Shown: positions 2,765 to 36,795, counted from the first letter of the stretch. The stretch: DNA of 61,574 bases from Planctomycetia bacterium (GCA_012269595.1 JAAXJX010000050.1:1612-63185), one strand, 5' to 3'. Notes: a model not told the origin generated them from the letters alone. Numbers and translations: made by a program.

Positions 2765-4144
2765 TCAGACCATTTCAGAGGGAACGACCCATTCATCGAA
2801 TTGGGCACCGCTGCAGTAACCTTTTTCGATAGCGACTTCCCGAAGGGTTTTGCCTTCTGCATGCGCAGTCTTCGCGACGTCCGCAGCATTGTCGTAACCG
2901 ATGTGTGGGTTGAGAGCGGTCACCAGCATCAAGGATCGGTGGAGCAGTTCATCGATCCGTTCCTGAACCGGCTCGATGCCACCGGCACAATTCTCCCGGA
3001 ATGAATCCATCGATGCCGCGAGGATGTCGATGGACTGAAGAATGCAGTCACCGATCACGGGCATGTAGACATTCAACTCAAAGTTGCCCAAAGCGCCACT
3101 GAAGCCGATGGTGCTGTCGTTGCCGATTACTCGGGCGCAGACCATCGTCATCGCTTCCGATTGGGTCGGATTGACTTTGCCGGGCATGATGGAAGATCCG
3201 GGTTCATTGGCGGGAATCGTGATTTCACCGATTCCACAACGGGGACCACTGGCAAGCCAGCGGACGTCATTGGCAATCTTGTGCAGGGCGGTGGCGAGGG
3301 TTTTGAGTCCTCCGGACAGGGCAACCAGAGCTTCTTTACCGCCCAGTTGGGCAAACTTGTCTGGTGCAGCCACAAAAGGGATACCGGTGGTTCCGGCAAG
3401 CACCAGCGGAACCATTTCAGAGTAACCTTCGCGGGTGTTGAGACCGGTTCCCACAGCAGTTCCACCGATCGGCAACTCACAAACCAATTCGAGAGCGGCT
3501 TTGATCTGGTGTTCACTGATGCGCAGCTGGTCTGCCCAGCCACCGATTTCCTGACCGAGCGTCAGCGGAGTTGCATCTTGCAGATGGGTTCTGCCGATCT
3601 TGACGATGCCCGAGTACTTCTCTGCCAATTCGGTGAAACACCCCCGCAATGATTCGAGAGCCGGGAGCAATCGGTCATGGCATTCGGATGCACACGCTAC
3701 ATGAATCGCCGTCGGAAAAGAGTCATTGGTACTTTGGGCGTGATTGACATGATCATTCGGGTGAACAGGACTCTTGCTGCCCAGAGGTTGCCCGAGGATC
3801 TGGTTGGCCCGGTTGGCGATGACTTCGTTGCTGTTCATGTTCGACTGGGTCCCTGATCCTGTCTGGTAGACGACCAGAGGGAAGTGATCATCCAGATCAC
3901 CGCGGATCACTTCTTCGGCAGCACCATCGATCGCCTGAGCGACCTCCGTTGGAATCCCTCCCAACTCGGCATTCACACGGGCAGCGGCCTGTTTGACCAG
4001 TCCCATCGCACGGATCATCGGACGCCGCATCCTTTCTGAGCCGATACGAAAGTTCTGCAGGGATCTTTGGGTCTGTGCTCCCCAGAGACGATCGGCGGGG
4101 ACTTCGATGTCGCCCATGGTGTCTTTCTCGATGCGGTGATCCAT
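2765..4144 (-). CDS. fumC: Class II fumarate hydratase
   Basis: [31 protein letters not shown] and signature [15 protein letters not shown]. Confidence 0.97.
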
Positions 4145-4308
4145 TGGGATTCCTCTCCTGTGCCTGCTGCCAAATTACCCCATGGAGAGTACCCCGGGCC
4201 ACCGATGCCGAGCCTGTTCCCGACTCTTTCGCTCACTCGCCCGGAGGCGGAGGAGGATTTACAATCCCGGGATATTTCACCGGATTTGTGATCTGTGGAG
4301 GAGTCGGC

Positions 4309-7300
4309 ATGAGAGTCGGGATGAGGAAGCCAGTACCAAGCATTGCGACATGGAGTCTGCTGACCGCATTTCTGCTGTGGTTGCCCCATGCTGCCCGAGC
4401 CCAGGATGGGCCCTGGGAAGAGATGGATTACGGCCCTTTTCTTTCCGCAGCCATCGAAGTTTCTCCGGACAACATTGCCTGCAAGGGCATCGCAATTCCT
4501 CTTTCCAGAGATGGTGCTCATGCTGCACTTTTTGATACCGCTGAACTGCGTTGGGCGGCGGTTTGGGAGGGCGATTTTGTCGAACTCCGGGGCATCGTGT
4601 ACGACGGTCCTCATGGCACCTGGCCGGAGATTGCCGGCGAACCTGATTGGCAAAACCCTGCAGGTCCGGGAGTGACCCTTTTGAAAGGCCGATGGGAAGA
4701 TCCCAGAGAAGTTCCTTTTGGCCCACTTCCTCCAGAGAAGGGGCGTTGGCAGGGTCTTCAGCGGGATCGTCAGGGGATTCTGCTGCATTATTCCCTGGGT
4801 GAAGCCAATGTCTTCGAACGGATGGCTTATCTTGAAGAGTCGGAAGTCGGCTTCTGGAAGCGCTCCATCCACTTGCGAAACAACTCGAAGGGGTTGCAGT
4901 TTTCGCTGATGGAATTGCCGGAGGGTGCTTCACTCGAAGCAGACGGAGACAGTCGAGGGGTCTGGACACTCCGCTTTCCGGATGGTTCCGGTTTTCTTCT
5001 CGGATTTGAAAACCGGCAGAAGTGGCGATTGGTCATTGATGACCAGCGACTGATATTGCAGATCCCTCCCACAGCGGAGGATGTTTATTCCCATCTTTAT
5101 CTTTCCCGCTTTGAGGAAGAGCCACCCCTACGCCAGTTCGAGTCTCTGCGTCGACGCACTTATCTGATCAATCCATCCCCGTTGGGTGAAACCTGGGGGA
5201 CCGGTTCCTTTCCCGCTCTTTACGACGAGAAGCTGGAACTGTCAGGGGAGATCGGTTTCAGAAGTGATGAGACTGGAGAGCTGCAGGAGAGACAGCGACT
5301 CACGGGCTCCCTGCCTGCAGACCGGGATCTGGAATTGGGCAAGCAGAGAAGGGTGCATGTTCTCGATTTGAGCGGGAAAGAGCTGGAGTTTCCCGCACCT
5401 CTGGAAAAGACGGTTCTTGTCGTCGAGGAGACGTTGCCACCGGCACCCTTTGCAGGCTGGAACTGCGATGAAAGTGCCGGAGAGAAGATGCAGAGTGTGG
5501 TCGATGGTGAAAAAGATCTGCTTCTCGACGGTGTGACCTGGCGTCGCGGAGTTCAGGGGCGGGCCCTCGATTTTGATGGCACCGGCAAGGCACGCTGGTT
5601 GCGTTCACCCGGAGATCTTCTCTTTGATGAGGACTTCACCTTTTCGACCTGGATCTGTACGACCAAGGACGGATCCATCTTTTCACAGACCCAGCCGGAA
5701 GGCTCCTGGATCCCGGGTGGAAAAACTTTTTTCATTCGTGACGGTCGCCTTTGTTTTGATGTCGGTTGGGTGGGAGTCATCGAGGGGGATCGATTTATCT
5801 CAGATGGTCGCTGGCGTCATGTGGCCTTTTCATGGGATGCAGATAATTTCCGTGTCGAACTCTTTGTGGATGGTGTTCGTGAGACTGGCGCCATTCTTGA
5901 ACCGGAAAACGAAACGAAGAATACCGTCACGACCATCGGGTTTACCGCGGAAGACTTTCCAGCAGAGTCCTGGTTCAGTGGATACATGGACGGTCTTCGA
6001 TTGCACCGGGGAGTCCTTGAAGAAGAGCAGCTTCGCGCAGTCGCTTCCGAAGGAGGCGAACCGCTGATCGAGGCGCTGGCGATCACCGGAGAGATTGAAA
6101 ATGCCATTTGGGAAGCAGATACGGAAAGTGCCCGGATCGTTCTGACTGCAGAACCTCAGGAGCTTCGAGTGGTTTTTCACCGGTGGTGGGGCCCACTGTC
6201 AAAGATTCAGGAGTTTCTGGGAAGACTTTCACAGGAGGATTCAGAGCAGCCCACCGATCCTTTCGAGATCGACAGGATCAGCTGGCCTGAAGAAAACCCG
6301 TGGAACTCATGGATGCGTTTTGGGGATTTTGATTTTCTCGCCGGTGGCCAGAGTGCGGTCATCTCAACCTGGAGTGGGGATGTCTGGAGAGTGGATGGAC
6401 TTGATGACACTCTTGAAAAACTGCAATGGCAGCGCATCGCAACCGGGCTCAGTCAGCCCCTGGGGCTGTTGACCCGTGCTCAGGGAGATGGAGAACAGAT
6501 CCTGGTCATGGGCCGTGATCAGATCACGGAACTGGTCGACCTCGATGGCGACGGAGAGACGGACCTTTACCGCGGCTTCAATGTGGATCCGATGAATTCC
6601 CCCCATTTTCATGAGCCGGCGGTGGGATTGCAGGAAGGACCGCAGGGCAAACTCTATTACCTGAAAGCGGCTCGCCATGCCAAGTTGCCCCTGCATCCCC
6701 AGCATGGAACCCTCATTGAAGTGGAGGCGGATGGCAGCACTTCACGGGTGATTGCCACAGGATTCAGGGCCCCCAACGGTCTGGCCGTCGATTCGGCTGG
6801 TCTCTTTTGGGGGTCTGATCAAGAGGGCCACTGGATGCCGGCGAATCGGATCAATCGCATTACCCGTGGCTCTTTTCAGGGGAATCACTGGAGTGGAAGC
6901 ATGCTCTCCGGGGAGAGAGAGATGGGCAGTGCCCATGATCCTCCCCTGTTGTGGATTCATCCGACGGTGGATCGTTCGCCTTCCGCCCAGCTCAGGGTTC
7001 CTGAAGGAGCCTGGGAAGAGCTTTCAGGCAAACTGCTGGGTCTCTCTTACGGCACCGGTGAAGTCTATCTGATTCTTGAAGATGAAGTCGAAGGCGTTCA
7101 TCAGGGAGCTCTTGTTCCTCTGCCCATCAGGATTCCCACCGGGGCGATGCGGGGTCGATTCCATCCGGATGGCAGCCTTTATCTTTGCGGTCTATTCGGA
7201 TGGTCTTCGGACAGAACCGAACCGGGCGGTTTCTATCGGGTGAGAAAAACCGAGACAGCCCAACCTCTGCCGTTGAAGATCCGGGCTGTGGAATCCGGTT

Positions 7301-22357: not shown

Positions 22358-24553
22358 TCAGGAGAGATCGAAGCGATCTGCATTCATGACCTTGTTCCAG
22401 GCGCTGACGAAGTCGGCGACAAACTGATTTGCCCCGTCGTCGGAGGCGTAGACCTCGGAGATGGCACGCAACTGGGAATTGGATCCGAAGACCAGGTCCA
22501 CTGCGGAGGCGCGCCACTTCGGCTCGCCACTGTTGCGATCGCTGCCCTCGTAGAGGTGCTCGCAGCGCTCGGAGACCTGCCACTTCGTTCCCACGTCGAG
22601 CAGGTTGACGAAGAAGTCGTTGCTCAGGACACCCGGGCGATCAGTGAAGACACCGAACTCGGTATGGCCGGTGTTGGCATTGAGTGCTCTCAGTCCACCG
22701 ACGAGGACGGTCATCTCCGGTGCACTCAGGCCGAGCATTTGCGCACGGTCCACCAGCAACTCTTCCGAGGAACGGGTGCATGCTGCGGAGTAGTAGTTAC
22801 GGAAGCCATCTGCTTGCGGCTCCAGCACAGCGAAGGAATCCACATCGGTGTGCTCGGCAGTGGCATCGGTACGGCCCGGAGTGAAGGGGACGTTGACGGT
22901 GTGTCCGCCGGCAGCTGCGGCTGCTTCGACTGCGGCACAGCCGGCGAGAACGATCATGTCCGCCGTGGAGATCTGCTTGCCACCGGAGTGGGCATTGTTG
23001 AACTCACCGCGAATGCCTTCGAGGGACTCGAGGACCTCTGCCAGCTGTGACGGGTTGTTCGCTTCCCAGTACTTCTGCGGAGCCAACTGGATGCGGGCGC
23101 CGTTGGCACCTCCACGATTGTCGGTTCCACGGAAGGTGGAGGCGGAGGCCCATGCGGTGGCGACCAGCTTTTCACCGGCGATACCGGAGGCGTTGACCTT
23201 GGCCTTGAGTGCGGCCACGTCGTCATCGTTGATCAGCTCGTGATCGACGGCGGGAACCGGGTCCTGCCAGATCAGGGCTTCGGCCGGAACCTGAGCACCG
23301 TAGCAACGGCTGATGGGACCCATGTCGCGGTGGGTCAACTTGTACCAGGCGCGGGCAAAGGCGTCGGCGAACTGGTCCGGGTTCTCGAGGAAGTTCTTCG
23401 AGATGGGTCCGTAAGCCTGATCCTCACGCAGGGCGAGGTCGGTGGTGAACATCACTGGAGCATGACGCTTGCTGGAATCATGGGCATCCGGCACGGTGCC
23501 ATCGGCGGCCGCATCCGTGGGGATCCACTGGGTAGCACCGGCGGGGCTCTTCGTCTGCTTCCACTCGTAACCAAAAAGGTTCTCGAAGTAGTTGTTGTCC
23601 CACTGAACCGGGTTGGTGGTCCAGGCACCTTCGAGTCCGCTGGTGATGGCGTCGCCACCTTTTCCGCTGCCGTAGCTGCTCATCCAGCCCATACCCATAT
23701 TCTCGGTCGGTGCGCCTTCCGGCTCAGGACCGACATGGGAATCGGGTGCGGCACCGTGGGCCTTACCGAAGGTGTGGCCACCGGCGATCAGGGCGACAGT
23801 TTCCTCGTCGTTCATCGCCATGCGGCCGAAGGTCTCACGGATATCCCTGGCGGCAGCGATGGGGTTCGGATTGCCGTTGGGGCCTTCCGGGTTGACGTAG
23901 ATCAGACCCATCTGCACGGCACCGAGGTGACCTTCCAGTTCACGGTCGCCACTGTAGCGCTCGTCAGCGAGCCACTCTGTCTCGGATCCCCAGTAGATGT
24001 CGTCTTCCGGCTCGAAGACATCCTGACGGCCTCCGGAGAAACCGAAGGTCTTGAAGCCCATCGACTCGAGGGCGCAGTTGCCGGTGTAGACCATCAGGTC
24101 CGCCCAGGACAGGCTGCGACCGTACTTCTTCTTCACGGGCCAAAGCAGCATGCGCGCCTTGTCGAGGTTGGCATTGTCGGGCCAGCTGTTGAGGGGAGCG
24201 AAACGCAGGGTTCCGGCTCCTGCACCACCACGGCCATCGCCGATGCGGTAGGTGCCAGCGCTGTGCCACGCCATGCGGATGAAGAGCGGTCCATAATGCC
24301 CGTAGTCGGCGGGCCACCACTCCTGGGAAGTGGTCATGACCTCATCGATGTCCTTGCGCAATTCTTCAAGGTCGACGTTTTTGAACTCTTCGACGTAATT
24401 GAAGGTGTCGTTCATCGGACTCACCTGAGGTGCATTCTGGTTGAGCACCTTGAGGTTGAGTTGATTGGGCCACCAACGCTGGTTGGCACTGGTGCTGGCA
24501 GCGAGGTGCTGCTGCGGGCCACCCATGGCGGGGCACTTGCTGATATCGCTCAT
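22358..24553 (-). CDS. katG: Catalase-peroxidase
   Basis: [59 protein letters not shown]. Confidence 0.98.
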
Positions 24554-24783: not shown

Positions 24784-25242
24784 ATGGAGTCTTCCGTCAG
24801 CGTTGATATCAACAGGCCTTTGCCCGAGGTGTTCCGTTATACCAATGAAAATGTGAGTGACTGGAGTATCACAGTTGTCGAGAACGAGGTACTCGAGGAA
24901 ACCCCTGAAAAAGTAGGGTCCCGATTCAGAATGCTGACCCAGGACAGGGGACGGCAGATGGAGATGACGGGGGAGGTGATCCGCTACGAGGAAAACCGCT
25001 TGAGTGAGGTTTTCCTGGTGGGACAGGGTTTCGAGATTTCCGCATTCTACATCTTTGAGGATCTGGGAAATGGCGTGACCCGGGTGACCGAAACCGCCAC
25101 AGTCCATCCCAAGGGAGTCACAAAAATCTTCTTTTTTCTCTTCGGCTGGCTCATGAAAAAATCCAGCTGTGAGGCACTTCAGAATGAATTGGATAGCCTC
25201 AAGGAAAAACTGGAATCGGGTGCGGGTGCGATGGCCTCCTGA
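24784..25242 (+). CDS. SRPBCC/START-like family protein
   Basis: AGGAG RBS; SVDINRPL.EVF.Y...W...G.RF...L..LKEKLE pattern; 152 aa. Confidence 0.75.
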   Translation: MESSVSVDINRPLPEVFRYTNENVSDWSITVVENEVLEETPEKVGSRFRMLTQDRGRQMEMTGEVIRYEENRLSEVFLVGQGFEISAFYIFEDLGNGVTRVTETATVHPKGVTKIFFFLFGWLMKKSSCEALQNELDSLKEKLESGAGAMAS

Positions 25243-25284
25243 AAACGGAGATGAGAAAAATGAACCGACCTTAAGGAGCAGATA

Positions 25285-26229
25285 ATGCTGAGCAAACCTC
25301 TGGTTCTGATATCGACATTCATGTTGCTGGTTTTTACAGGTGCGGATGACAAACAAGCGGACCTGAAGGCCAAACTCGAAAAGAAGTTGAAGGCAAAGTT
25401 CGTCGAGACCGGGGGGTGGCTTCTCGATTATCAGGAGGCCCGAAGGCAGGCTGAAGAGCAGGGCAAGCCGATCTTCGTCTACTTCACCCGCACCTTCGCA
25501 CCGTGAGGCCCTTGCGACACCCTGGAGAGTGGTGCACTCTCTGCCCCCGCTTTTCTTGAATTTCGCAAAAAGGTAATCCCCTATCTCAACATCATGACCC
25601 GCATCGAGGGACATCCCGATGACAACCTGTTGATCGATCTCGGTTATGGAGGCCACCCGACCCTGGCTTTCATGAATCCGAAGGGCGAGGTGCTGGGACG
25701 GCCACTGGAAAGAAGTGTGTCCAGTTTTGAAGAGACGTTGTCGGCCATTGAAGATTTCACCCAGCTGGAGAAACGGGAAAAGGAGGGTGAAAAGGGGCTC
25801 GAATTTGAGCGCTACATCCTGGAATACCGCCTGATGAAATTGCGTGGAGGTCAATTGGTGAAGCGCGGCAAGGCGTTACGGGGTCTGACCGGTGAGCAGC
25901 AGGCAAGAGTGGATGGGATAGTTCTCGGCGAAGAGGTGAGCGATCTGGTGCTGCTGTCGATGGACCCCGCAAAAATCGAAATTGCTGGAAAACGGATGCA
26001 AGAGATTCTCGACGGTGGACGTTGTCCCCAAATGGTTCGGGATGCCAATGCCTGGAGTGTCCTTTCCCGATATGCCGAGAAGATCCGCGATGCAGATCTG
26101 TTGGAACGCTGCGCCAAAGGTCTCGCGGAAAACTTCCCAAACGACGAATATATGCAGAATTGGGCGCAGAGCCTGAAGAAAAAAGTGAAGGCATTGCGGA
26201 CTACCGACAAGGGGATCGAAAAACCCTGA
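25285..26229 (+). CDS. Secreted thioredoxin-like protein with in-frame TGA (putative selenocysteine, U-G-P-C)
   Basis: ORFs 25285-25506 and 25594-26229 share a frame and the 29 codons between them have no stop. The joined product reads YFTRTFAP-U-GPC...GGHPTLAFMNPKGEVL. A SECIS-like hairpin follows the TGA. Confidence 0.75.
25525..25541 (+). promoter_or_regulatory. Candidate bacterial SECIS hairpin
   Basis: GAGAGTG-GTG-CACTCTC; the G-starting apical loop lies about 25 nt after the TGA at 25504-25506. Confidence 0.55.
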
Positions 26230-26330
26230 GTCTCATTTAGAATCGAGTCTTCAGGACAGAGTTATTCAAAAGCAAGACCACAGGTCTTTACACGTGGACG
26301 CAGAAACGATTTGTAGCAGAGGCGGTTTCA

Positions 26331-28775
26331 ATGGGGACGCAGAGATTCCCGGTAATCCTGATCGGTTTCCTGGGGGCCATGCTTTTGGCCACTGCTCCCG
26401 TGATTGCCCAGTCAGGGAATGAGACCTGTTCCTCTCCGGGCACGATCTTTGGCGGTGAGACGGGGACTCCCGTTTCGATTTCCGATTCGATCCAGATCAA
26501 CGACAGCCTGATTATCGAAGACCTGCACGTTCGGGTGGACATCAGCCATGGCTTTGTTGCCGATCTGCTCGTCGATCTGAATTCTCCGGCGGGCACGACT
26601 CTCCGGCTTCATGACGGCCTGGGAGGGGATCTCGATGATCTGCGGGTCATCTTCAGTGATGATGGCGTGGCCAACGGGGCGGTGACCTATGACTTCGGCT
26701 GTTACATGCAGCCATCGAACGGCCCCTTGAGTCTCTTCAGCGGTCAGAATACCCAAGGGCTGTGGACCTTGAACGTGCAGGATGATTTTCCGGCCAACAG
26801 TGATGGAGTCCTCAACAGCTGGTGCCTGCGATTCTTCAACTCGCCCGTCTCGGTTTTGCCGGCTGTGCAAAACTTTGCCTGCACTCCCACTCAGGACGGG
26901 GCTGCACTGTCCTGGGATAATCCCCAGGCCTACGGCTCCATCGAACTGACGGTCAACGGAACCGTGTTGTCATTACCGGGAAGCACGACGACTCACACCA
27001 TCAGTGGAGTTGCACCGGGAACCCTGCTGGAGATCTCTGTTGTTGGTGCATTGGCACTTCCCGGGCAATCGGTTTCCTGTGCGGAAGTCTGTGCTGTGAC
27101 CACCCTGAATGGCCCCCCGACCCAGGTGGCGGTGACCATCGATGAACAGTACGACGACTGGAGTGGGGTTACGCCGCTTCAGGATCCGGTCGGCGATGCG
27201 GTTCCCGGCGGCCACGATCTGCTGTCCCTTTCCGTGGCCGATGATGATGAGTCCCTGTTTCTTCGTTTCGATTTTGCCGGGCCGGAGGTGCAGCTCGATG
27301 AAGGGGACACACTGATTCTCTACATCGATACGGATGCCAATCCCAATACGGGGCTGGCCATCTCCGGGATCGGTGCCGAGGTGGAATGGGACTTTGGGGC
27401 CAGGCAGGGAACGGTGAGATCCGGGGGAGCGACCTTTCCGATCAGCCATGCGGATGTGGGCCTCGTCGCCGCACCCACTGTCTCTGGCACCGAGTTTGAA
27501 CTCAGCCTTCGCAGAAACTCGCCACTGATCTCACTGGGATCGGAGGTTCGGGTACTGCTGTGTGACGACCGACCCGGGGGAGATTGTCTTCCCGATTCAG
27601 GTGGCCTCTTTCACCCGCTGGCTCTGGGCCAATTGCCTCCGGATGCTGAGATCCCTCTGACCCGGGAGCAGGCATCAGATCTGCGGATCGTCAGTTACAA
27701 CGTCCTCACCGATAACCCGTGGCAAGGGCAGGGGAATCGGATTGGCCGACAGTTGGCGGCAGTGGCAGCGGACATTTACTGTTTTCAGGAGATCTACAAT
27801 CACACACCGGTTGAAACCGCTTCTTATGTGAGTTCATGGGTGAGCCCCAGCGGCGGCGGGAACTGGTTCAGTGCCGGTCAGTCCGACTGCATCTTTGTCA
27901 GCCGCTTCCCGATTTTGCAAACCTGGGCCCTGTCGGGGAACAGTGCGGCGTGGATCGATACCTCCAGTGAGTGGGGGGTACCGACGATGGTGATCAACGC
28001 CCACCTTCCCTGCTGTGCCAACGAATCGGGCCGGCAGAACGAATGTGATCAGATTGCCGCGTTCATCCGTGACCAGCGTTTGGCAGGGCTGCTTTCGACC
28101 CACCCGGAGGCGGCGGTGCTGATTCTGGGGGACATGAATTTTGTTGGCGAATCCCGTCAGCGGACGACCCTGTTGACCGGTGACATTCTCGACGAGACCC
28201 AATGGGGCTGGGACTACCCCATGGATTCGGATGGATCCGATCTCATCGATACCAAATCGCGTCATGTCGCCAAACGTCAGACCTACACCTGGCGCAACGA
28301 CAACGGCAGCTACTCCCCCGGTTATCTGGATTACATCATCTATTCCGATGCGGTTCTGGAACTGGGGCGTCATTTTGTGCTCCTGACCGATGAGATGTCG
28401 AACAGCTCACTGGTGCAGAATGGACTGCAGTTCGATGATTCCAGCGGGTCAGATCATCTGCTGGTGGCGGCGGATTTCCGCCCTCTGGCAGGTGGAGTGC
28501 TTTTCCGTCGGGGAGATTGCAATGGCGATGGATCTCTCAATATTTCGGATGCGGTCGCTTCCCTGCTCTCCCTCTTCGGCGGAGGGGCTCCTCCCAACTG
28601 TCAGGATGCCTGCGATGCGAACGACGATGGAACGCTGGATGTGTCGGATCCGGTGACGCTGCTGGGAATGCTCTTCTCCGGTTTTGGCGATCTGCCCGCA
28701 CCGGGACCCCAGAACTGTGGAGCAGATCCCACCAGCGATGCACTCGACTGCTCCACCTTCAGCGGTTGTCCCTGA
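26331..28775 (+). CDS. Secreted protein: proprotein-convertase P-domain, FN3-like, DOMON/CBM9-like, endonuclease/exonuclease/phosphatase domain, C-terminal dockerin-like domain
   Basis: P-domain (VDISH..VADL...SPAGT...GLWTL.V.D...G.L.SW); EEP motifs SYNV, FQEI, NAHL, GDMN, LDYI, SDH; tail FRRGDCNGDGSLNISD...DANDDGTLDVSD. Confidence 0.85.
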   Translation: MGTQRFPVILIGFLGAMLLATAPVIAQSGNETCSSPGTIFGGETGTPVSISDSIQINDSLIIEDLHVRVDISHGFVADLLVDLNSPAGTTLRLHDGLGGDLDDLRVIFSDDGVANGAVTYDFGCYMQPSNGPLSLFSGQNTQGLWTLNVQDDFPANSDGVLNSWCLRFFNSPVSVLPAVQNFACTPTQDGAALSWDNPQAYGSIELTVNGTVLSLPGSTTTHTISGVAPGTLLEISVVGALALPGQSVSCAEVCAVTTLNGPPTQVAVTIDEQYDDWSGVTPLQDPVGDAVPGGHDLLSLSVADDDESLFLRFDFAGPEVQLDEGDTLILYIDTDANPNTGLAISGIGAEVEWDFGARQGTVRSGGATFPISHADVGLVAAPTVSGTEFELSLRRNSPLISLGSEVRVLLCDDRPGGDCLPDSGGLFHPLALGQLPPDAEIPLTREQASDLRIVSYNVLTDNPWQGQGNRIGRQLAAVAADIYCFQEIYNHTPVETASYVSSWVSPSGGGNWFSAGQSDCIFVSRFPILQTWALSGNSAAWIDTSSEWGVPTMVINAHLPCCANESGRQNECDQIAAFIRDQRLAGLLSTHPEAAVLILGDMNFVGESRQRTTLLTGDILDETQWGWDYPMDSDGSDLIDTKSRHVAKRQTYTWRNDNGSYSPGYLDYIIYSDAVLELGRHFVLLTDEMSNSSLVQNGLQFDDSSGSDHLLVAADFRPLAGGVLFRRGDCNGDGSLNISDAVASLLSLFGGGAPPNCQDACDANDDGTLDVSDPVTLLGMLFSGFGDLPAPGPQNCGADPTSDALDCSTFSGCP

Positions 28776-29560: not shown

Positions 29561-29634
29561 CGTCCCCGGCAGGATTCGAACCTGCGACCTTCGGATTAGG
29601 AATCCGATGCTCTATCCAGCTGAGCTACGGGGAC
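29561..29634 (-). tRNA. tRNA-Arg (anticodon CCT), CCA not encoded
   Basis: Minus strand GTCCCCG-TAGCTCAGCTGGATAGAGC-A-TCGGA-TTCCTAA-TCCGA-AGGTC-GCAGG-TTCGAAT-CCTGC-CGGGGAC-G forms a canonical cloverleaf. Confidence 0.96.
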
Positions 29635-29865: not shown

Positions 29866-32800
29866 ATGAAGATCTTTTCTGTAACGACATCCTATGTCGT
29901 ATCAAGCCTTGCCGCCTTCAAACGGCTCGGCCTTGTATTCGTGTTTGTATTTGTGTCTATGGGTATGTCCGGCACTCCGCTGACGGCGCAGAACTGTGAA
30001 ACAGGTTCTGAGACGTTGGCTGCATCGGCAACCCATGTGGACAACTCCGGTTCGTGGCTGGTTCGTGGCCAGGGCAGTGAGGTCGAGCTGTTACTCGAAG
30101 ATCAGGGAAGCTGGACATCCTTCCAGACTCTTGATCTGGGATTGCAGACTCTTCATTCGCTGGATCTGGATGGAACCTTGCTTGCCATCGGTCTGGGCAA
30201 TGAGGTCCGCATCCACAGTTATGACGGTACCAGCTGGGTCGAGGAGTTTGCCTTCGGGCCTGCTGATCCAGCAACGAGTTTCGGTCACAGCGTTGCCTTG
30301 TCCGGAAACCGACTGGCTGTGGGAGATCCAAACAGCAATACGATCACTTTCTACACGCGACTCTTCACCAGTGGGCAATCTGCTTCCTGGTTCACGAGTT
30401 CTACCAATACAGGATCTCCCGGAGGAACTCTGGGAGATGAGCTGGAAATGGTAGACGGCTACCTCGCCGCTGCTGACAGATCTCTGGGTTCCATTCAGGT
30501 ATTCGTTCCGGTGGGAAGTCCATCTCTGGAATGGGAAGCGGACTCCAGTCTGGCTCTGTCGAATGTTTCCGGATTCAGCCTCCATTCTTCTGGAGCTCAT
30601 CTGGATCTTTTGGTTCCTTCTGCTTCCGGTGCACAAATTTATCGTCGCGCTGGAGCCGGTTGGGATTTGCAGAGTGATTTGTCTTTCACTCCAGGAGCCA
30701 GACAGTACAGCGTTCTCTCCGCTGACAAGGCCGTCGTGACCACGGACTGTGGTCTGAGGCTCTACTCGCAGGAAGCGGGAGTATGGGATTCAGGTGTGGA
30801 ACTTCGCACTTTGGATGCTGCTGTGGCGTGCATGGACTTGCACGGAGCACAGGATGATTCTCCATTGGCCTTTGGTGATGCCGGAATTTTCCTGAGTACC
30901 GCCTCTGATCTGCGTCTGATTTCCGGATTGACCTACGCCGATTGCAATGGAAACGGATTACCCGATTCCTGTGATCTGGCTGCCGGAACTCCGGACTGCA
31001 ACGGCAATGGAATTCCTGACAGTTGCGACTTCGCCAATGGTGATCAGGATTGCAATGACAACGGCGTGATCGACATTTGTGAGATCAACAACGGATTTGC
31101 CCCTGATTGTAATGGAAATGGGATTCCGGACAGTTGCGACGCTCTCAATGGCGTTCAGTTTGATACCATTCCTCCGGTGATCGCCGGGGTTCCGGAAAAT
31201 CAGGACATTATTCTGAGCCCGGGTGTCTGTGCTGCGATTGCTGATTGGATAGAGCCGACTGCAACCGATATTTGCAGTAACGCCACCATTTCTTCGGATG
31301 TAGCTTTGGGTTCCGAGTTGTTCCCGGGTGTCAATACGATCACCTACACAGCCGAGGATGATCACGGCAACCAGTCCACCGCCAGTTTCACAGTGACGGT
31401 GACAGAGAATATTCCTCCGGTACTGGCGCAGTTGCCGATTGTCCCCGATTTTGCGGCGGACCCTCTGACCTGCACCGCGGTGGCGACCTGGGAAGAGCCG
31501 ACGGCAACGGACATCTGTTCCGATGTGACGATTACATCGAGCCATCCCAATGGGTCTGAGTTCCCCCTGGGAGAAACTCTGGTGGTCTTTACTGCGACGG
31601 ATGTCAGCGGAAACACTGACATCGATGGAATCATCATTCGCGTGGTCGACAACTCTGCACCCGTGATTGAGCAGTTGCCAAATATCGAGGTTTCTGCCCC
31701 CAACACTGCCTGTAATGCGACTGTTGACTGGATTGATCCGGTGATTACCGATTGCACACCAGGTGTGACGGTTACCCAAAATTTCCAGCAGCCCCTGATC
31801 GGCCTGCCGGGTATTCGCAATGTGACCTACACAGCCACAGATGCGAATGGTGTGTCATCTGCGATGACCTTTACGGTCAATATTGTTGACGATACTCCGC
31901 CGACTCTGGTGGGTTTGCCTGCGGATATGGTCCTTAACACTGACCCGGGTGCCTGTGGTGCCACGGTTCTTTGGGATCCGCCGACCGTGGTCGATAACTG
32001 CGATCTTGAACTGGAGCCTGTCAGTAACTTCGATCCTCCCTCCACCTTTGGTGTGGGTGTGACGACCGTGGTTTACACGGCCATCGACCCTTCCGGTAAC
32101 GAGAGGGTGGGTTCTTTCACGGTGACCGTGAATGACCTGGATATTCCTGTCTTCGTCAGTACCCCTGGACCGGTCTCTGCAGCGACCAGTACTACAGACT
32201 GTTCTGAGCCGGTGACCTGGAATCCGCCGGTGGCCGTCGACTGCTCCGCCAACCTCACCTACACCGCTTCTCATGATCCGGGAACCCCCTTCCCGTTGGG
32301 AACCACGGATGTCACTTACGAGGTTTCTGATCTTTCTGGCTTCTCGTCGACGATTACTTTCCCTGTGACGGTGACCGATGGATTCGGCCCGGAATTCCTG
32401 GGAGTGCCTGCAGACATCACTCAAGCGGTGACACCGGGTGAGTGCAGTTCTCTGGTGACATGGATCGAACCGACAGCTACTGATTCCTGTGGAACCTCCA
32501 CGATCAGTGGTTCCCATGCACCGGATACCGTCTTCCCTGTAGGAGTGACCCCGGTGACATACACGGCGATTGATGACAGTGGCAATGTCAGCACCGCGAC
32601 CTTCAATGTGACCGTGACCGATGGAAATGCACCAGCATTCAGCTCGGTGGTGGCCGATCAAAGTGCCACTGCTGCCATCGGAATCTGCCAGGCCCAGATC
32701 TTCTGGGATGAGCCTACAGCCACTGACGACTGTGCTGATGTTGTCATCACATCGTCCCATGCTTCCGGATCTTTCTTTGACAAGGGAGTCACGACGGTGA

Positions 32801-35800
32801 CTTACACCGCTTCCGATGGTGGCGGTGAAGTGGACCAGTTCTCATTCAACGTGACCGTGACCGACGTTGAGGCACCGAGTCTGCTCAACATGCCTGCAGA
32901 TATCACCGTGGGCAATGTTCCGGGTGCTTGTGCCAACACGGTCTTTTGGTTGACTCCGACTGCATTCGATCACTGCGAGCCAGTCGGATTTGCTGCGAGC
33001 CATGTTCCAGGAACCAGCTTCCCGGTCGGTCAGACCGAGGTGACTTACACCTCTACAGATTCTTCCGGAAACACAGCAAGCGCCAGCTTCATGATTCTCG
33101 TGGAGGATCGGGATGCCCCGACCTTTGTCGATACATTGCCGAGTTTGACGACGGTGATCGATCCGGGAACATGCGGAGCAGTGGTAACCTGGGCCGAGCC
33201 TTTGGCGTTGGATGCTTGTGATGCAGAATTGACCATCACTTCCAATCACCAGTCAGGTGACATCTTCCAGGTGGGAAGCACTCTGGTGACCTACACTGCT
33301 ACCGACGATTTCAATAACTCTACAAGCCTCTTCTTCAATGTGGTCGTGGAGGACAACGAAGGTCCAACGATTGTCGGGATTCCGCAGAGTTTCACTGCTG
33401 GAGTCGATGAAGGTGTTTGTGGTGCAACGGTGACATGGCAGGAGCCGGCACCTCTGGATTGCCAGTCGATGACAGTCCAAAAGAGCCATGATAATCCAGC
33501 CTTCCTTCCTCTGGGTGACACAACGGTGACTTACATCGTTACCGACGCCAGTGGAAATGCGACCACGGATTCATTTGTGATCACGGTTGTGGACGATCGT
33601 GCTCCGACATTCACGGCATTCCCTGAAAACATCTCGGTCTCCAACGACCCGGGAACCTGTGAGGCGATCGTGACCTGGGAGCCACTGCAGACGAGTGATC
33701 CCTGTTCGACCTCCTCATTTACCTTGAGTCACGAATCAGGATCGGTCTTCCCCCAAGGGGTGACGACCGTTACAGCGACCGCAGTGGACCTTTCTGGTAA
33801 CAGTCGTCAGCAGAGTTTTACCGTGAGTGTCCTTGATGGAGAGTCTCCGATTCTTCTGGAAGCACCCTCTGATCCGGTTTTCGTGGGTAACAGCACTCAA
33901 GAGTGTGATGCCGTCGCAAACTGGACCGTTCCTTCCTTCATCGACAACTGTGGTGGAGCAGTCACGGTCACTTCCAATCACCAGCCCGGTGATATCTTCC
34001 CGGTGGGAGAAACTCTTGTGAGTTACTCCGCTTTGGATGCGGACCTCAATGAGACGACTCACAGTTTCACGGTGATCGTTCTCGACACCACTGATCCGAC
34101 GGTGGAACAGCTGCCTGAAACGGTACATGTTTCAACGCCGGTCGATTCATGCTCAGCCACGGTCACATGGCCGGAGCCTGTTGCGACTGATTGTGGTCAA
34201 GTCACGGCTACCAGTGATTTTGCCAACGGCGCAGAGTTGGGTATCGGATCTCATATCATCACCTACACCTTCTCGGATGATTCAGGCAACAGCACGATGG
34301 GTTCTTTCCTCGTGGTTGTTTCTGATGGCGAGAATCCGACGATCTCGAATGTGCCTCAGGATGTGACGGTGACAAACACCACCTCCATGTGTGGGGTGAA
34401 CGTGATTTGGAGTGAACCCTCCACCAGTGACTGCACCTTCAGCAGCATGACTGCCAGTCACTCACCGGGAGACTTGTTCTCCACGGGTGTGACGGAGGTT
34501 CAGTACACCTCAACCGATACCGAGGGTAACCAGTCGACAGCCAGTTTCCTGGTCACAGTTCTGGATGGTGAAAGTCCGCAGATCATTGATATGCCCACCG
34601 ATATCACGGTGACCGCAGATCTGGGATCTTGTCAGGCAGCAGCCACTTGGGGCGACCCGCAGGCCATCGATTGTGTGTCTGCTGATTTGGCCTCCTCACA
34701 TCTTTCCGGAAGCCTTTTCGATATCGGTACGACTGAAGTGATCTACACAGCCACCGATACCGCAGGAAACTCCTCGCAGGCATCATTCCACGTGACAGTG
34801 ATCGATCAGGAAGCACCGCAAATCGCAAACATGCCGGATACGGTGATCGTCCAAAACAGCCCGGGCCTGTGCACCGGTGTAGCCATTTGGTCTGAACCGA
34901 GTGGAACCGACTGTTCCGGAATCGCATCCATCACGCCCTCGATTTCTTCGGGGTCCGAGTTCCCGGTGGGAACCACCACTGTGTTCTACAGCGTGATTGA
35001 CAACAGTGGTCTCGAGTCTGTGGCCAGTTTCCTCGTTGAGGTTCAGGACACAGAAGCGCCGACAATCCTCAATCTGCCTGGAACGGTAACGGTTTCCAAC
35101 ATCGCTGGTAACTGCTCTGGCCCGGCAACCTGGGAGACGCCTTCCACCGAAGATTGCTCGGGTTCCTTCATCACTTCTGACTACAGCAGCGGGCAAATGT
35201 TTGCGCTGGGAAGCACCACCGTTACCTACACGGCAATGGATGAATGGGGCAATAGCAGTCAGTCCAGCTTTGAGGTGATTGTTGAGGATACGGAATCACC
35301 CTTCTTCACGAATCTTCCGGCGACGATGACCTTCTCAAGTACATTGGGTACCTGTGAGGGATTGGCAACATGGCCGATGCCCACGGCGGCGGACCTCTGT
35401 AGTGCAGCTGCAGACGTCACCGTTACTTCCAGCCACGATTCTGGATCCGTATTTGCTATCGGAGATCACACAGTGGTCTTCACCGCAACGGATGCCAGCG
35501 GTAATGAACATGCACAGTTGGTGACGATCAGCATTATCGATATCGAGCCGCCGACGATCAGCGACATGCCTACAGACCTTGTGGGTACAGCGTTAATCGG
35601 CGAGTGCGGAGTACCGATGTCCTGGAATCCGCCTGCGACCTCAGACTGTTCGGATGTCACTCTCACCAGCACATTCAGTTCCGGTGACCTGATTCCGATT
35701 GGTTTGAATACCATTACCTACACAGCCACAGACAGTGCTGGTAACTCTTCCAGCTCTTCCTTCTTCATTAATGTTGCCGACGCGGAAGCGCCGACCATCA

Positions 35801-36795
35801 GCAACTTGCCCGAAAATGTGATTTTGACCAATGACTTCGATTCCTGTGGAGCAATCCATTCATGGGTTGAGCCGACCATTGAGGACTGCAGTGATCTGAT
35901 GCCCATCAGCATTTCTCACAGCAGTGGCACATTCTTTGAGCCGGGTATCACTGAAGTCTCTTACTCTGCGACCGATTTCTACGGTAACTCCACAACACAG
36001 AGCTTCACGGTCAATGTTGTTGACAAGGATGGTCCCCAGTTCCTGAACGTGGTTTCCTACGTTGAGTTGAACAACTATCCCGGTCTTTGCGGCGCAAATG
36101 CGTTCTGGCCAGAGCCGACGGTGGTCGACAACTGTGAAGTATCCAGTCTGCAGTCCACCGTTGAGCAGGGTGATTTCCTGCCGTTGGGTGAAACAGTGGT
36201 CAACTACGTGGCCATCGACAGTGAAGGCAATGCCAATACGGCCTCGATCACGATCAATGTCATCGACAATGAGGCGCCGCAGGTAATCAACCTTCCGGCT
36301 CACATCTTCGCCGAGCCGGATCCGTCAACCTGTACAGCGATCGTGACCTGGCAGGCTCCGGAAATCTCCGACAACTGCGACGGCGGCACGATCACCAGTT
36401 CGCATGAATCTGGAACAGAGTTTGAGGTAGGAACGCACACCGTGACCGTCATCGCGACCGACGCAGTTGGATTTGTGACGGAAGTCAGCTTCCAGGTCAC
36501 GGTCAATGAGTGCGGAGTGTCCTTCATTCGCGGTGACACCAACAATGACGGTGCCTACGACATCTCTGACGCGATTGGAATCCTCCAGTACATCTTTGGC
36601 GGGGCCATGACCGATCCGACCTGTCTCGATTCGCTGGATGAGAATGACGACGGCATGATCTCGATTGCGGATGCGATTTACCACTTCTCCCACCTCTTCT
36701 CGGGTGGTCCTGCTCCGGCAGCACCTTTCGACAGTTGTGGAGTCGACATGACTGCTGATGATCTGGGTTGCGAGAGCTACGGCGTCTGCCCCTGA
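29866..36795 (+). CDS. Giant secreted protein: degenerate FG-GAP propeller, 4 DCNxNGxxDxC repeats, 22 HYR domains, C-terminal dockerin-like domain
   Basis: Signal peptide; FGHSVALSGNRLAVG; repeats of about 80 aa D..P...C...W.EP...DC...SG..FP.G.T.VTYTATD..GN...F.V.V (22 counted); tail FIRGDTNNDG..DISD...DENDDG.I.IAD. Confidence 0.9.
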   Translation: MKIFSVTTSYVVSSLAAFKRLGLVFVFVFVSMGMSGTPLTAQNCETGSETLAASATHVDNSGSWLVRGQGSEVELLLEDQGSWTSFQTLDLGLQTLHSLDLDGTLLAIGLGNEVRIHSYDGTSWVEEFAFGPADPATSFGHSVALSGNRLAVGDPNSNTITFYTRLFTSGQSASWFTSSTNTGSPGGTLGDELEMVDGYLAAADRSLGSIQVFVPVGSPSLEWEADSSLALSNVSGFSLHSSGAHLDLLVPSASGAQIYRRAGAGWDLQSDLSFTPGARQYSVLSADKAVVTTDCGLRLYSQEAGVWDSGVELRTLDAAVACMDLHGAQDDSPLAFGDAGIFLSTASDLRLISGLTYADCNGNGLPDSCDLAAGTPDCNGNGIPDSCDFANGDQDCNDNGVIDICEINNGFAPDCNGNGIPDSCDALNGVQFDTIPPVIAGVPENQDIILSPGVCAAIADWIEPTATDICSNATISSDVALGSELFPGVNTITYTAEDDHGNQSTASFTVTVTENIPPVLAQLPIVPDFAADPLTCTAVATWEEPTATDICSDVTITSSHPNGSEFPLGETLVVFTATDVSGNTDIDGIIIRVVDNSAPVIEQLPNIEVSAPNTACNATVDWIDPVITDCTPGVTVTQNFQQPLIGLPGIRNVTYTATDANGVSSAMTFTVNIVDDTPPTLVGLPADMVLNTDPGACGATVLWDPPTVVDNCDLELEPVSNFDPPSTFGVGVTTVVYTAIDPSGNERVGSFTVTVNDLDIPVFVSTPGPVSAATSTTDCSEPVTWNPPVAVDCSANLTYTASHDPGTPFPLGTTDVTYEVSDLSGFSSTITFPVTVTDGFGPEFLGVPADITQAVTPGECSSLVTWIEPTATDSCGTSTISGSHAPDTVFPVGVTPVTYTAIDDSGNVSTATFNVTVTDGNAPAFSSVVADQSATAAIGICQAQIFWDEPTATDDCADVVITSSHASGSFFDKGVTTVTYTASDGGGEVDQFSFNVTVTDVEAPSLLNMPADITVGNVPGACANTVFWLTPTAFDHCEPVGFAASHVPGTSFPVGQTEVTYTSTDSSGNTASASFMILVEDRDAPTFVDTLPSLTTVIDPGTCGAVVTWAEPLALDACDAELTITSNHQSGDIFQVGSTLVTYTATDDFNNSTSLFFNVVVEDNEGPTIVGIPQSFTAGVDEGVCGATVTWQEPAPLDCQSMTVQKSHDNPAFLPLGDTTVTYIVTDASGNATTDSFVITVVDDRAPTFTAFPENISVSNDPGTCEAIVTWEPLQTSDPCSTSSFTLSHESGSVFPQGVTTVTATAVDLSGNSRQQSFTVSVLDGESPILLEAPSDPVFVGNSTQECDAVANWTVPSFIDNCGGAVTVTSNHQPGDIFPVGETLVSYSALDADLNETTHSFTVIVLDTTDPTVEQLPETVHVSTPVDSCSATVTWPEPVATDCGQVTATSDFANGAELGIGSHIITYTFSDDSGNSTMGSFLVVVSDGENPTISNVPQDVTVTNTTSMCGVNVIWSEPSTSDCTFSSMTASHSPGDLFSTGVTEVQYTSTDTEGNQSTASFLVTVLDGESPQIIDMPTDITVTADLGSCQAAATWGDPQAIDCVSADLASSHLSGSLFDIGTTEVIYTATDTAGNSSQASFHVTVIDQEAPQIANMPDTVIVQNSPGLCTGVAIWSEPSGTDCSGIASITPSISSGSEFPVGTTTVFYSVIDNSGLESVASFLVEVQDTEAPTILNLPGTVTVSNIAGNCSGPATWETPSTEDCSGSFITSDYSSGQMFALGSTTVTYTAMDEWGNSSQSSFEVIVEDTESPFFTNLPATMTFSSTLGTCEGLATWPMPTAADLCSAAADVTVTSSHDSGSVFAIGDHTVVFTATDASGNEHAQLVTISIIDIEPPTISDMPTDLVGTALIGECGVPMSWNPPATSDCSDVTLTSTFSSGDLIPIGLNTITYTATDSAGNSSSSSFFINVADAEAPTISNLPENVILTNDFDSCGAIHSWVEPTIEDCSDLMPISISHSSGTFFEPGITEVSYSATDFYGNSTTQSFTVNVVDKDGPQFLNVVSYVELNNYPGLCGANAFWPEPTVVDNCEVSSLQSTVEQGDFLPLGETVVNYVAIDSEGNANTASITINVIDNEAPQVINLPAHIFAEPDPSTCTAIVTWQAPEISDNCDGGTITSSHESGTEFEVGTHTVTVIATDAVGFVTEVSFQVTVNECGVSFIRGDTNNDGAYDISDAIGILQYIFGGAMTDPTCLDSLDENDDGMISIADAIYHFSHLFSGGPAPAAPFDSCGVDMTADDLGCESYGVCP

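What the first reader, a model, noticed from the sequence alone, without database searches (positions are those of the whole stretch)
25285..26229. Hidden selenoprotein: secreted thioredoxin-fold protein with a U-x-x-C site and SECIS-like hairpin
Seen: the ORF track splits this gene in two, but both parts share a frame and the only interruption is TGA 25504-25506. It falls exactly where the first Cys of CxxC belongs (PIFVYFTRTFAP-TGA-GPC), with the cis-Pro-type motif GHPTLAFMN downstream and a signal peptide upstream. The hairpin GAGAGTG-GTG-CACTCTC has a G-starting loop about 25 nt after the TGA. Established: bacterial Sec insertion uses a stem-loop just 3' of UGA, and UxxC thioredoxin folds are a typical selenoprotein class. 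TGA ends many other genes here, so this is not a genome-wide recoding. Inference: a 314-aa exported selenoprotein with a helical C-domain that standard annotation would miss.
Basis: partly seen in the sequence, partly recalled or inferred. Interest (0 to 1): 0.8.

Follow-up and report, generated by a model that had tools for sequence, protein, structure and literature searches.

The report
Unannotated exported thioredoxin-fold selenoprotein gene
What gene callers split into two pieces is one gene for an exported thioredoxin-like redox protein whose active-site "stop" codon almost certainly encodes selenocysteine; it is a solid new example of a familiar kind of bacterial selenoprotein.

Summary
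ATG 25285 to TGA 26229 is one frame broken only by TGA 25504-25506, at the first position of a UGPC redox motif in a Thioredoxin_7 domain. A hairpin at 25524-25542 has its loop 25 nt after the UGA.

The selenocysteine reading is strongly supported:
- The genome (a marine Planctomycetota MAG) carries selA, a Sec-containing selD, tRNA-Sec(UCA) and selB.
- The TGA is in the same column in 22 of 22 relatives' loci inspected.
- 103 of 118 strong family matches in 301 Planctomycetota genomes carry a TGA.
- Homologues with Cys at that column exist.
- The hairpin covaries and is kept by synonymous codon choice.
- The TGA is unchanged in independent metagenome contigs, and one metatranscriptome contig bridges it.

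Public records hold only the 211-aa tail, named "hypothetical protein". No curated NCBIfam selenoprotein model reaches its cut-off. I cannot exclude that old "Trx-like 2/3" marine classes include this family. This scan had already flagged paralogues in the same genome.

The function (periplasmic thiol-disulfide reductase like DsbH) is inferred.

The gene is accessory: close relatives lack it at this locus.

The parts
25273..25278 (+). Shine-Dalgarno-like AAGGAG, 6 nt before the start codon
   Evidence: Read from the sequence. No comparable motif precedes the ATG 25594 of the annotated 211-aa fragment.
25285..26229 (+). Full selenoprotein coding sequence: 314 aa plus the terminal TGA
   Evidence: The family profile matches across the TGA (positions 4-334 of 335). 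X10 and X15 DNA contigs span it and an X20 RNA-library contig bridges the TGA.
25285..25344 (+). Probable Sec-type signal peptide (MLSKPLVLISTFMLLVFTGA)
   Evidence: All 15 aligned members have a hydrophobic N-terminus followed by small residues. Inference: no signal-peptide predictor was run.
25417..25680 (+). Thioredoxin_7 (DsbH-like) domain, residues 45-132
   Evidence: PF13899: E 2.9e-10, 40.6 bits against a cut-off of 27. PDB profile hit 2ju5_A (DsbH): E 4.6e-8, with its CMWC aligned to U-x-P-C.
25504..25506 (+). UGA read as selenocysteine (U74), first residue of the U-G-P-C redox motif (25504-25515)
   Evidence: Same column in 22 of 22 loci. Cys in other homologues. No variant at these bases in the four runs laid.
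25524..25542 (+). SECIS-like hairpin: 8-bp stem with a GUG loop that starts 25 nt after the UGA
   Evidence: Covariation in 5 of 8 pairs. Positional and recoding controls. Sec forms are more stable than Cys forms.
25657..25659 (+). cis-Pro position of the thioredoxin fold (P125 in GHPTLAF)
   Evidence: Invariant in alignment A2. Pro in 117 of 118 representatives.
25708..26226 (+). C-terminal domain of about 170 aa, family-specific, fold unassigned
   Evidence: No Pfam family in 15 of 15 members. No significant PDB match (best E 0.0028). It is covered by the family profile in relatives.
25228..26395 (.). Variable segment holding the whole gene. It is absent between conserved flanks in same-genus genome G002 (about 190 bp instead) and replaced by other genes in G003. 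G001's contigs break here.

Best explanation
25285-26229 is a single gene for a 314-residue exported thioredoxin-fold selenoprotein.

How the UGA is read. During translation, UGA 25504-25506 is decoded as selenocysteine. The mRNA hairpin 25524-25542 lies inside the coding sequence, where it encodes the L-E-S-G-A-L start of helix alpha-1. It is the SECIS element that recruits SelB carrying GTP and Sec-tRNA(Sec) to the ribosome. The genome supplies selA, selD, tRNA-Sec and selB. These points are shown, or strongly supported, by comparative evidence.

What the protein does (inferred). After export by its N-terminal signal peptide, the protein acts in the periplasm as a thiol-disulfide oxidoreductase of the DsbH / DsbD-gamma type. 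Sec74, at the N-terminus of helix alpha-1, would be the attacking nucleophile. Cys77 would resolve the mixed selenenylsulfide. The thioredoxin-like U-G-P-C motif suggests a reductase rather than an oxidase. A DsbD-type membrane electron carrier, which is present in the genome, could recycle it. The family-specific C-terminal domain of about 170 aa would provide substrate or partner recognition.

Family setting. The gene is one of three paralogues in this genome. It belongs to a large, mainly Planctomycetota family in which Sec and Cys have been exchanged many times. At this locus it is an accessory gene.
For: Machinery in the window's own genome (93% complete):
- selA: 530 bits.
- selD: 347 bits, itself with one in-frame TGA.
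- tRNA-Sec: 67 bits, and ARAGORN gives anticodon tca.
- selB: 365 bits.

Conservation of the TGA:
- The best 60 rows of the relatives search all contain exactly one TGA.
- 22 of 22 loci inspected have it in the column YFTR[ST][YF]xP-U-xPC.
- 103 of 118 strong profile matches (E <= 2.3e-32) in 301 Planctomycetota genomes carry a TGA, 14 carry none and 1 has only a TAG. The TGA position was not checked in those rows.

Sec/Cys pair:
- 8 genes with TGC/TGT at the column in 7 loci, beside one TGA paralogue.
- Among 149 representatives: 76 Cys, 31 cut at the column, 20 Ser, 22 other.

Co-occurrence with selA, by my hand tally:
- 66 of 69 genomes with a TGA form have selA.
- The 3 without are 80-84% complete.
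- selA is found in 221 of 301 genomes overall.

SECIS hairpin:
- 99.2% of cells are paired against 91.2% in shuffles.
- 5 of 8 pairs have compensatory changes.
- The covariation score is 0.372 against 0.204, reached by 0 of 500 shuffles.
- The loop starts 23-26 nt after the UGA in 124 of 126 distinct members and mostly begins with G.
- Family stems average 7.9 bp against 4.35 bp after synonymous recoding. For the window's gene, 1.1% of recodings reach its stem.
- Sec forms fold at -12.8 kcal/mol (n=126) and Cys forms at -9.2 (n=8).
- The genome's own selD has a comparable hairpin, with a GGUCG loop 26 nt after its UGA.

Reads:
- There is no variant at 25504-25506 in two DNA contigs from two studies.
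- One RNA-library contig, 25289-25645, bridges the UGA.

Fold: PF13899 and DsbH 2ju5.

Electron donor candidate: DsbD_TM at 87.5 bits.
Against: - There is no direct evidence of selenium incorporation.
- For this gene alone, plain folding energy is unremarkable.
- Rfam has no SECIS match, even at E <= 10.
- bSECISearch could not be run.
- The covariation set of 33 sequences was chosen by pairing register, which inflates the percentage paired.
- The Sec-versus-Cys comparison has only 8 Cys forms, and relatives are not independent.
- One Cys form (L046) keeps a perfect hairpin.
- The RNA-library contig could derive from contaminating DNA.
- Function: no conserved gene neighbourhood was found. The score against the DsbH model is far below its cut-off (20.1 against 190 bits). 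The C-domain has no assignable fold. Export and the reductase role are inferences.
Confidence: 0.9

Rival explanations
1. The TGA is a true stop. The locus would then hold a 73-aa secreted peptide gene followed by an independent 211-aa gene starting at ATG 25594, as public annotation has it.
For: Table 11 gives exactly these two ORFs. Public databases hold the 211-aa product. TGA is the usual stop in this genome.
Against: The split would cut a thioredoxin fold between strand beta-1 and its CxxC helix. Homologues with Cys at the column are continuous proteins. Sequence is conserved on both sides of the TGA, in frame, across the phylum. There is no Shine-Dalgarno-like motif before ATG 25594, while AAGGAG precedes ATG 25285.
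Confidence: 0.03
2. The UGA is read through, but not as selenocysteine. Possible routes are near-cognate Trp or Cys insertion, or Cys carried on tRNA-Sec when selenium is scarce.
For: No chemical evidence for Se was obtainable here. Five of the 149 representatives have Trp at the column, and many have Cys or Ser, so other residues are tolerated in the fold.
Against: A complete Sec machinery co-occurs with TGA forms: 66 of 69 genomes, by hand tally. The hairpin at a fixed distance covaries and is kept by codon choice, which is the requirement of SelB-dependent decoding and has no role in leaky read-through. Hairpins are weaker in Cys forms.
Confidence: 0.05
3. It is a pseudogene or an assembly or sequencing error: a Cys codon (TGC/TGT) mutated or misread to TGA.
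For: A single-base change separates TGA from TGC/TGT. The genome is a metagenome-assembled draft of 60 contigs.
Against: The TGA is present in contigs from independent runs of two studies and in an RNA-library contig, with no alternative base. The same TGA occurs in 22 of 22 relatives' loci and in 125 metagenome genes. Those 125 were retrieved with a pattern that demands TGA, so they show abundance, not conservation. Ten of 18 variants within the gene are synonymous, a modest signal.
Confidence: 0.01

Closest known systems
DsbH, periplasmic disulfide reductase of Chlamydia (PDB 2ju5; NCBIfam NF043050), and the Pfam Thioredoxin_7 family PF13899
   Same: Exported thioredoxin fold. The best solved-structure match is E 4.6e-8, with DsbH's C-M-W-C aligned on U-x-P-C and the shared W..(Y)..A and FT motifs before the site. 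PF13899 scores above its cut-off. 13 of 15 family members touch the DsbH model, all below its cut-off.
   Different: Sec replaces the first Cys. It scores 20.1 bits against the model's cut-off of 190. It has an extra C-terminal domain of about 170 aa that DsbH (154-aa chain) lacks. The DsbH reductase role is recalled from the literature, not read here.
Catalogued UxxC thioredoxin-fold bacterial selenoproteins: 'Thiol:disulfide interchange protein' PF13098, 'Trx-like 2' cd02953 and 'Trx-like 3' of the GOS marine selenoproteome
   Same: Same kind: a Trx fold, a UxxC motif, Cys homologues and an in-gene SECIS. The GOS 'Trx-like 3' class is marine-enriched, with 212 Sec sequences and only a weak domain match (PMC2398784 Table 2, passages seen). 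4 of 15 family members weakly hit PF13098.
   Different: The window's protein does not hit PF13098 at E <= 1. Whether the GOS classes contain this family cannot be tested, because no sequences were accessible (figures and supplements not held).
Trx7/PDZ domain-containing selenoprotein (NCBIfam NF041199)
   Same: Best NCBIfam hit. It shares the Thioredoxin_7-type N-terminal region (residues 44-81) and is a recognised selenoprotein family (review PMC13188914, table passages).
   Different: 22.4 bits against a cut-off of 300. That family's motif is listed as CxxU, not UxxC. No PDZ domain was found here.
Canonical bacterial SECIS (E. coli fdhF type; bSECISearch model)
   Same: A stem-loop inside the coding sequence shortly after the UGA, with a small apical loop that begins with G. 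The example 'canonical SECIS' printed in the BSepDB paper has a 3-nt GGC loop on a stem of about 9 bp (PMC13326102, Table 1 passage). That is the same shape as this family's GGU/GGC/GUG loops.
   Different: No bulged U or lower stem was evident. The spacing is 23-26 nt here, against 17 nt in that example. The bSECISearch limits (loop 16-37 nt after the UGA) are recalled, not read. The program was not available.

Membership tests
Bacterial selenoprotein gene (operational criteria used in comparative genomics) | In-frame UGA conserved at the same position in orthologues and paralogues | tested here: met
   22 of 22 loci. The best 60 rows each have exactly one TGA. 103 of 118 strong matches carry a TGA.
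Bacterial selenoprotein gene (operational criteria used in comparative genomics) | Homologues with Cys aligned to the UGA | tested here: met
   8 TGC/TGT genes in 7 loci. 76 of 149 representatives have Cys, 70 of them as CxxC.
Bacterial selenoprotein gene (operational criteria used in comparative genomics) | SECIS stem-loop just 3' of the UGA | tested here: met
   Hairpin 25524-25542. Covariation. Fixed spacing in 124 of 126 members. Recoding control. It was not scored with bSECISearch, and Rfam gave no hit.
Bacterial selenoprotein gene (operational criteria used in comparative genomics) | selA, selB, selC and selD in the genome | tested here: met
   All four score over their curated cut-offs, and the tRNA has anticodon UCA.
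Bacterial selenoprotein gene (operational criteria used in comparative genomics) | Selenium shown in the protein | not testable with these tools
   Needs 75Se labelling or mass spectrometry.
Pfam Thioredoxin_7 (PF13899) | Score above the gathering cut-off | tested here: met
   40.6 bits against 27, residues 45-132. 12 of 15 family members match at E <= 0.01.
DsbH (NCBIfam NF043050, equivalog) | Score above the curated cut-off of 190 bits | tested here: not met
   20.1 bits. The best of 15 members reaches E 1.7e-8, still below the cut-off.
Trx7/PDZ selenoprotein (NF041199) | Score above 300 bits, a PDZ domain and a CxxU motif | tested here: not met
   22.4 bits over residues 44-81 only. No PDZ domain. 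The motif here is UxxC.
VPGUxxT thioredoxin-like selenoproteins (NF041382/NF041383) | Score above the cut-off (275 bits) and a VPGU motif | tested here: not met
   19.5 bits. The motif here is FAP-U-GPC.
GOS/Sargasso 'Trx-like 2' and 'Trx-like 3' selenoprotein classes | Sequence membership in those clusters | not testable with these tools
   Only the table rows were seen. No sequences or CDD models are on hand.
Rfam SECIS families | Covariance-model match | tested here: not met
   No SECIS hit at the gathering threshold or at E <= 10 on 25450-25620.

The most novel reading that the evidence does not exclude
This gene and its paralogues may be a selenoprotein family that is genuinely uncatalogued: an exported DsbH-like Sec enzyme with a private C-terminal domain. 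It is present in about a quarter of sampled Planctomycetota species, often in several tandem copies, and may be the main use of selenium in marine members of the phylum. Its SECIS is written into the first active-site helix, so amino-acid pairs there (Ser..Leu, Asn..Phe, Lys..Phe) co-vary to keep the RNA pairing. Sec and Cys have been swapped at least two dozen times.
Probability: 0.35. Interest if true: 0.5.

Novelty: new member of a known kind. Interest (0 to 1): 0.4.

Why it matters
The finding corrects a systematic annotation error. The active-site half of an abundant marine Planctomycetota protein is missing from public protein sets, so redox and selenium budgets inferred from those sets are wrong for this phylum.

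The family offers many natural Sec/Cys/Ser switches on one scaffold, which is useful for asking what selenium buys an exported oxidoreductase. It also gives a clear case of one stretch of sequence constrained both as RNA and as protein.

It does not change how selenocysteine insertion is understood.

Tried and rejected
Steps that gave no result:
- Structure prediction of the family alignment was asked for four times and was not available. No fold search was possible, so the 'helical C-domain' stays untested.
- The protein-atlas look-up gave nothing, either for the whole protein or for the C-terminal part.
- A profile of the C-domain alone against solved structures gave nothing significant. The best hit was E 0.0028, to a helical Helicobacter protein.
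- Rfam gave no SECIS hit.

Tests that were weak:
- MFE-based synonymous recoding on 22 sequences gave a mean z of -1.0. On 126 sequences it gave a mean z of -1.5, and the window's gene was not exceptional. I replaced it with a position-specific stem statistic.

Leads dropped:
- Conserved neighbourhood. Only the last 90 or so residues of the 814-aa neighbour recur near family members. That dockerin-like domain has 117 tblastn hits in this genome, so the proximity is meaningless.
- KatG next door is not a conserved neighbour, so it is not used as evidence of function.
- A screen of the window for other TGA-joined frames gave 145 candidates and was too noisy to use.
- A regex match on the opposite strand of L030 (8 codons upstream) was dropped as chance.
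- X19's RNA contig stops at 25501 and does not bridge the TGA, so it counts neither way.

Literature searches:
- 'DsbH' with 'selenocysteine' found three unrelated papers.
- 'UPPC', 'UGPC' and 'Trx-like 3' found only the GOS paper.
- The 2026 review PMC13188914 has no occurrence of PF13899, DsbH or Planctomyc (passages only).
- The deep-Sep and BSepDB papers have none of Planctomyc or thioredoxin in the main text.
- The supplementary tables of these papers and of PMC4807772 (its S9 list of planctomycete selenoproteins) were not seen and may list this family.

Full report
**Observation.** The window has ATG at 25285 and an in-frame TGA at 25504-25506. The same frame then stays open to TGA 26227-26229. 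Under table 11 this gives a 73-aa ORF and, from ATG 25594, a 211-aa ORF. Read through, the product is 314 aa with U74 in PIFVYFTRTFAP-U-GPC. AAGGAG lies 6 nt before the first ATG. Residues 45-132 match Pfam Thioredoxin_7 at E 2.9e-10, 40.6 bits against a cut-off of 27. TGA closes 33 of 39 long open frames in the window, including this gene. The codon is therefore not reassigned genome-wide.

**Sec machinery.** The window's genome has 2.82 Mb in 60 contigs and is 93% complete. It holds:
- selA (530 bits);
- selD next to it (347 bits), itself with an in-frame TGA at ...SCAG-U-AAKL;
- a tRNA with anticodon UCA directly downstream;
- selB (365 bits).

Record titles of Cys-form relatives and the public name of the window's own fragment place the lineage in Planctomycetota. 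Runs that hold the gene are marine and seawater metagenomes from six studies.

**Comparative evidence for Sec.**
- A protein search of 61 related genomes found matches in 44. The best 60 rows each contain exactly one TGA.
- In all 22 loci fetched, the TGA is in one column, YFTR[ST][YF]xP-U-[GP]PC. Each gene has a hydrophobic N-terminus, the Trx domain and a C-terminal domain of about 170-190 aa. One chance regex match in L030 was dropped.
- The window's genome has two further paralogues, on contigs C10 and C60, each with the TGA.
- A profile search of 301 Planctomycetota species genomes matched 134 at E <= 1e-10. Of the 118 listed rows at E <= 2.3e-32, 103 carry a TGA, 14 carry none and 1 has only a TAG. 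I did not check the TGA position in those rows.
- selA was found in 221 of the same 301 genomes. By my hand tally of the two listings, 66 of 69 genomes with a TGA form have selA. The three without are 80-84% complete.

**Cys homologues.** They are plentiful.
- A scan whose pattern happened to encode Cys at the column returned 7 loci. They hold 8 TGC/TGT genes and one TGA paralogue, and L044 has three family genes in tandem.
- Among the best 149 representatives of an exhaustive profile search, 76 have Cys (70 as CxxC), 31 are cut at the column, 20 have Ser and 22 have other residues.
- A FastTree of 216 rows needs at least 24 Sec/Cys changes, against a shuffled mean of 57. The window's gene sits in a well-supported clade of 7 rows that all carry Sec. 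Its nearest relative is at 58% identity, in a genome of another family of the same order.

**The hairpin.** The pattern demands TGA, so these genes show abundance and hairpin diversity, not TGA conservation. Together with the relatives' loci, this gave 126 distinct segments out of 147.
- The loop starts 23-26 nt after the UGA in 124 of 126, and mostly begins with G: GGU 24, GGC 20, GUG 14.
- The 5' arm stays in place, while different subgroups use pairing registers shifted by one or two bases.
- In the 33 sequences that share the window's register, 99.2% of cells pair, against 91.2% in shuffles and 37-76% in slid controls.
- In the same 33, 5 of 8 pairs show compensatory changes, and the covariation score is 0.372 against 0.204, reached by 0 of 500 shuffles. 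This set was chosen by register, which favours pairing.
- Some compensations change the protein. In L024, for example, Ser-to-Asn is paired with Leu-to-Phe.

Controls that do not depend on register:
- In 96 of 126 genes with enough context, the 30-nt window at the hairpin folds at -12.6 kcal/mol, against -5.9 for other windows. A median of 2.1% of other windows are as stable.
- Stems at the fixed position average 7.9 bp, against 4.35 bp after synonymous recoding. 116 of 126 have at least 7 bp.
- Sec forms fold more stably than the 8 Cys forms, -12.8 against -9.2 kcal/mol, Mann-Whitney p = 8e-4. Relatives are not independent, and one Cys form keeps a perfect hairpin.

For the window's gene alone the results are mixed:
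- The stem statistic is significant: 1.1% of recodings reach its stem.
- Plain MFE is not.
- Rfam gives no SECIS match.
- The genome's selD has a similar hairpin, with a GGUCG loop 26 nt after its UGA.
- The example of a canonical bacterial SECIS printed in the BSepDB paper has the same small G-first loop.

**Reads.** Eighteen DNA runs hold at least 75% of the gene's sampled words, and two metatranscriptome runs hold about 45%. I laid four runs on the window. Two DNA contigs from different studies span the gene. One RNA-library contig covers 25289-25645, across the UGA and the hairpin. No run shows another base at 25504-25506. Contigs cannot prove transcription. Ten of 18 variants in the gene are synonymous.

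**What it is like.** The closest solved structure by sequence is DsbH of Chlamydia (2ju5, E 4.6e-8). Its C-M-W-C aligns to U-x-P-C. The scores against NCBIfam's DsbH, Trx7/PDZ, VPGUxxT and TsoB models are 17-22 bits, far below cut-offs of 190-805. The protein is therefore a member of none of them. The C-terminal domain has no Pfam family in any of 15 members and no significant solved relative. The genome has a DsbD-type membrane domain, which is a candidate electron donor. From these points I infer a periplasmic thiol-disulfide reductase with Sec74 as nucleophile and Cys77 as resolving residue. This is inference from the fold and the thioredoxin-like UGPC motif. No conserved neighbourhood supports it.

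**Known or new.** All 17 close database hits are C-terminal fragments without names or Pfam domains. The window's own fragment is on record as 'hypothetical protein'. The 2026 review of prokaryotic selenoproteins (passages seen) lists no family under PF13899, DsbH or Planctomycetes. The GOS study lists 'Trx-like 2' (cd02953) and the marine-enriched 'Trx-like 3' (212 sequences) as UxxC classes. I cannot test whether they include this family. A 2016 paper reports Sec machinery and selenoproteins in planctomycete genomes, but its list is in a supplement that I did not see. Earlier notes of this scan had already called paralogues in this same genome, and the YAP-U-PPC family in another genome, selenoproteins of this type. 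My tests agree with them. The kind (Trx-fold UxxC selenoprotein with an in-gene SECIS) is the most familiar one, so I rate this a new member of a known kind.

**Accessory status.** In same-genus genomes the flanks are conserved: 95% identity in G001, 92-94% in G002 and 73-79% in G003. The segment at about 25228-26395, which holds the whole gene, is not.
- G002 has about 190 bp there, and the neighbouring gene ends also differ.
- G001's contigs break at both edges.
- G003 has other genes there, including an isoaspartyl-peptidase-like ORF.
- None of the seven same-genus genomes has a close orthologue. Their best matches are the two other paralogues, at 33-34% identity.
- GC content is ordinary: 53.7%, against 55.7 +/- 2.5% for the window.

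The gene is thus a variable third copy in this lineage.

Noticed in passing
window 25228-26395; L170 (G002), L171 (G003), L169 (G001): The slot between the SRPBCC gene and the 814-aa gene is variable within the genus. This genome has the selenoprotein gene there, G002 has about 190 bp, and G003 has an isoaspartyl-peptidase-like ORF and others. G001's contigs break at both edges. The last codons of the SRPBCC gene and the signal-peptide codons of the downstream gene also differ between G000 and G002.
   Followed up: partly
window 26331-28775 (+), last ~99 residues: The 814-aa protein (P-domain plus endonuclease/exonuclease/phosphatase domain) ends in a dockerin-like, Cys-containing repeat domain (two D-x-N/D-x-D-G-x-L-x-x-S-D repeats). 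That domain gives 117 tblastn hits across the genome, which suggests a very abundant C-terminal sorting or anchoring module.
   Followed up: partly
G000 contig C10:8947-11665 (L001, L003, L011): selA, selD and tRNA-Sec lie in a row, and selD is itself a selenoprotein (one in-frame TGA at SCAG-U-AAKL) with its own hairpin 26 nt after the UGA.
   Followed up: partly
L044 (Planctomycetota MAG contig), ~3000-6100: Three family genes stand in tandem with different active sites: C-I-D-S (degenerate), U-P-P-C (TGA) and C-P-S-C. Sec and Cys paralogues therefore coexist side by side. Tandem pairs or triples also appear in G277, G316, G170, G182 and G323.
   Followed up: no
L046 ~3166-3220: A Cys-form homologue (TGC) keeps a perfect GGAGAGCG-GUC-CGCUCUCC hairpin at the SECIS position. 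This may reflect a recent Sec-to-Cys change.
   Followed up: no
representatives P0019-P0167: 20 of 149 family representatives have Ser at the Sec/Cys column (15 as SxxC), and 22 have other residues (Trp, Ala, Val, Asp ...). These are redox-altered or inactive branches of the family.
   Followed up: no
window 22358-24553 (-): A catalase-peroxidase (Pfam peroxidase, E 3e-72) is transcribed divergently two genes upstream. It is not a conserved neighbour of the family.
   Followed up: partly
window 29866-36795 (+) and 29561-29634 (-): A 2309-aa protein with 21 HYR-domain stretches lies next to a tRNA gene.
   Followed up: no
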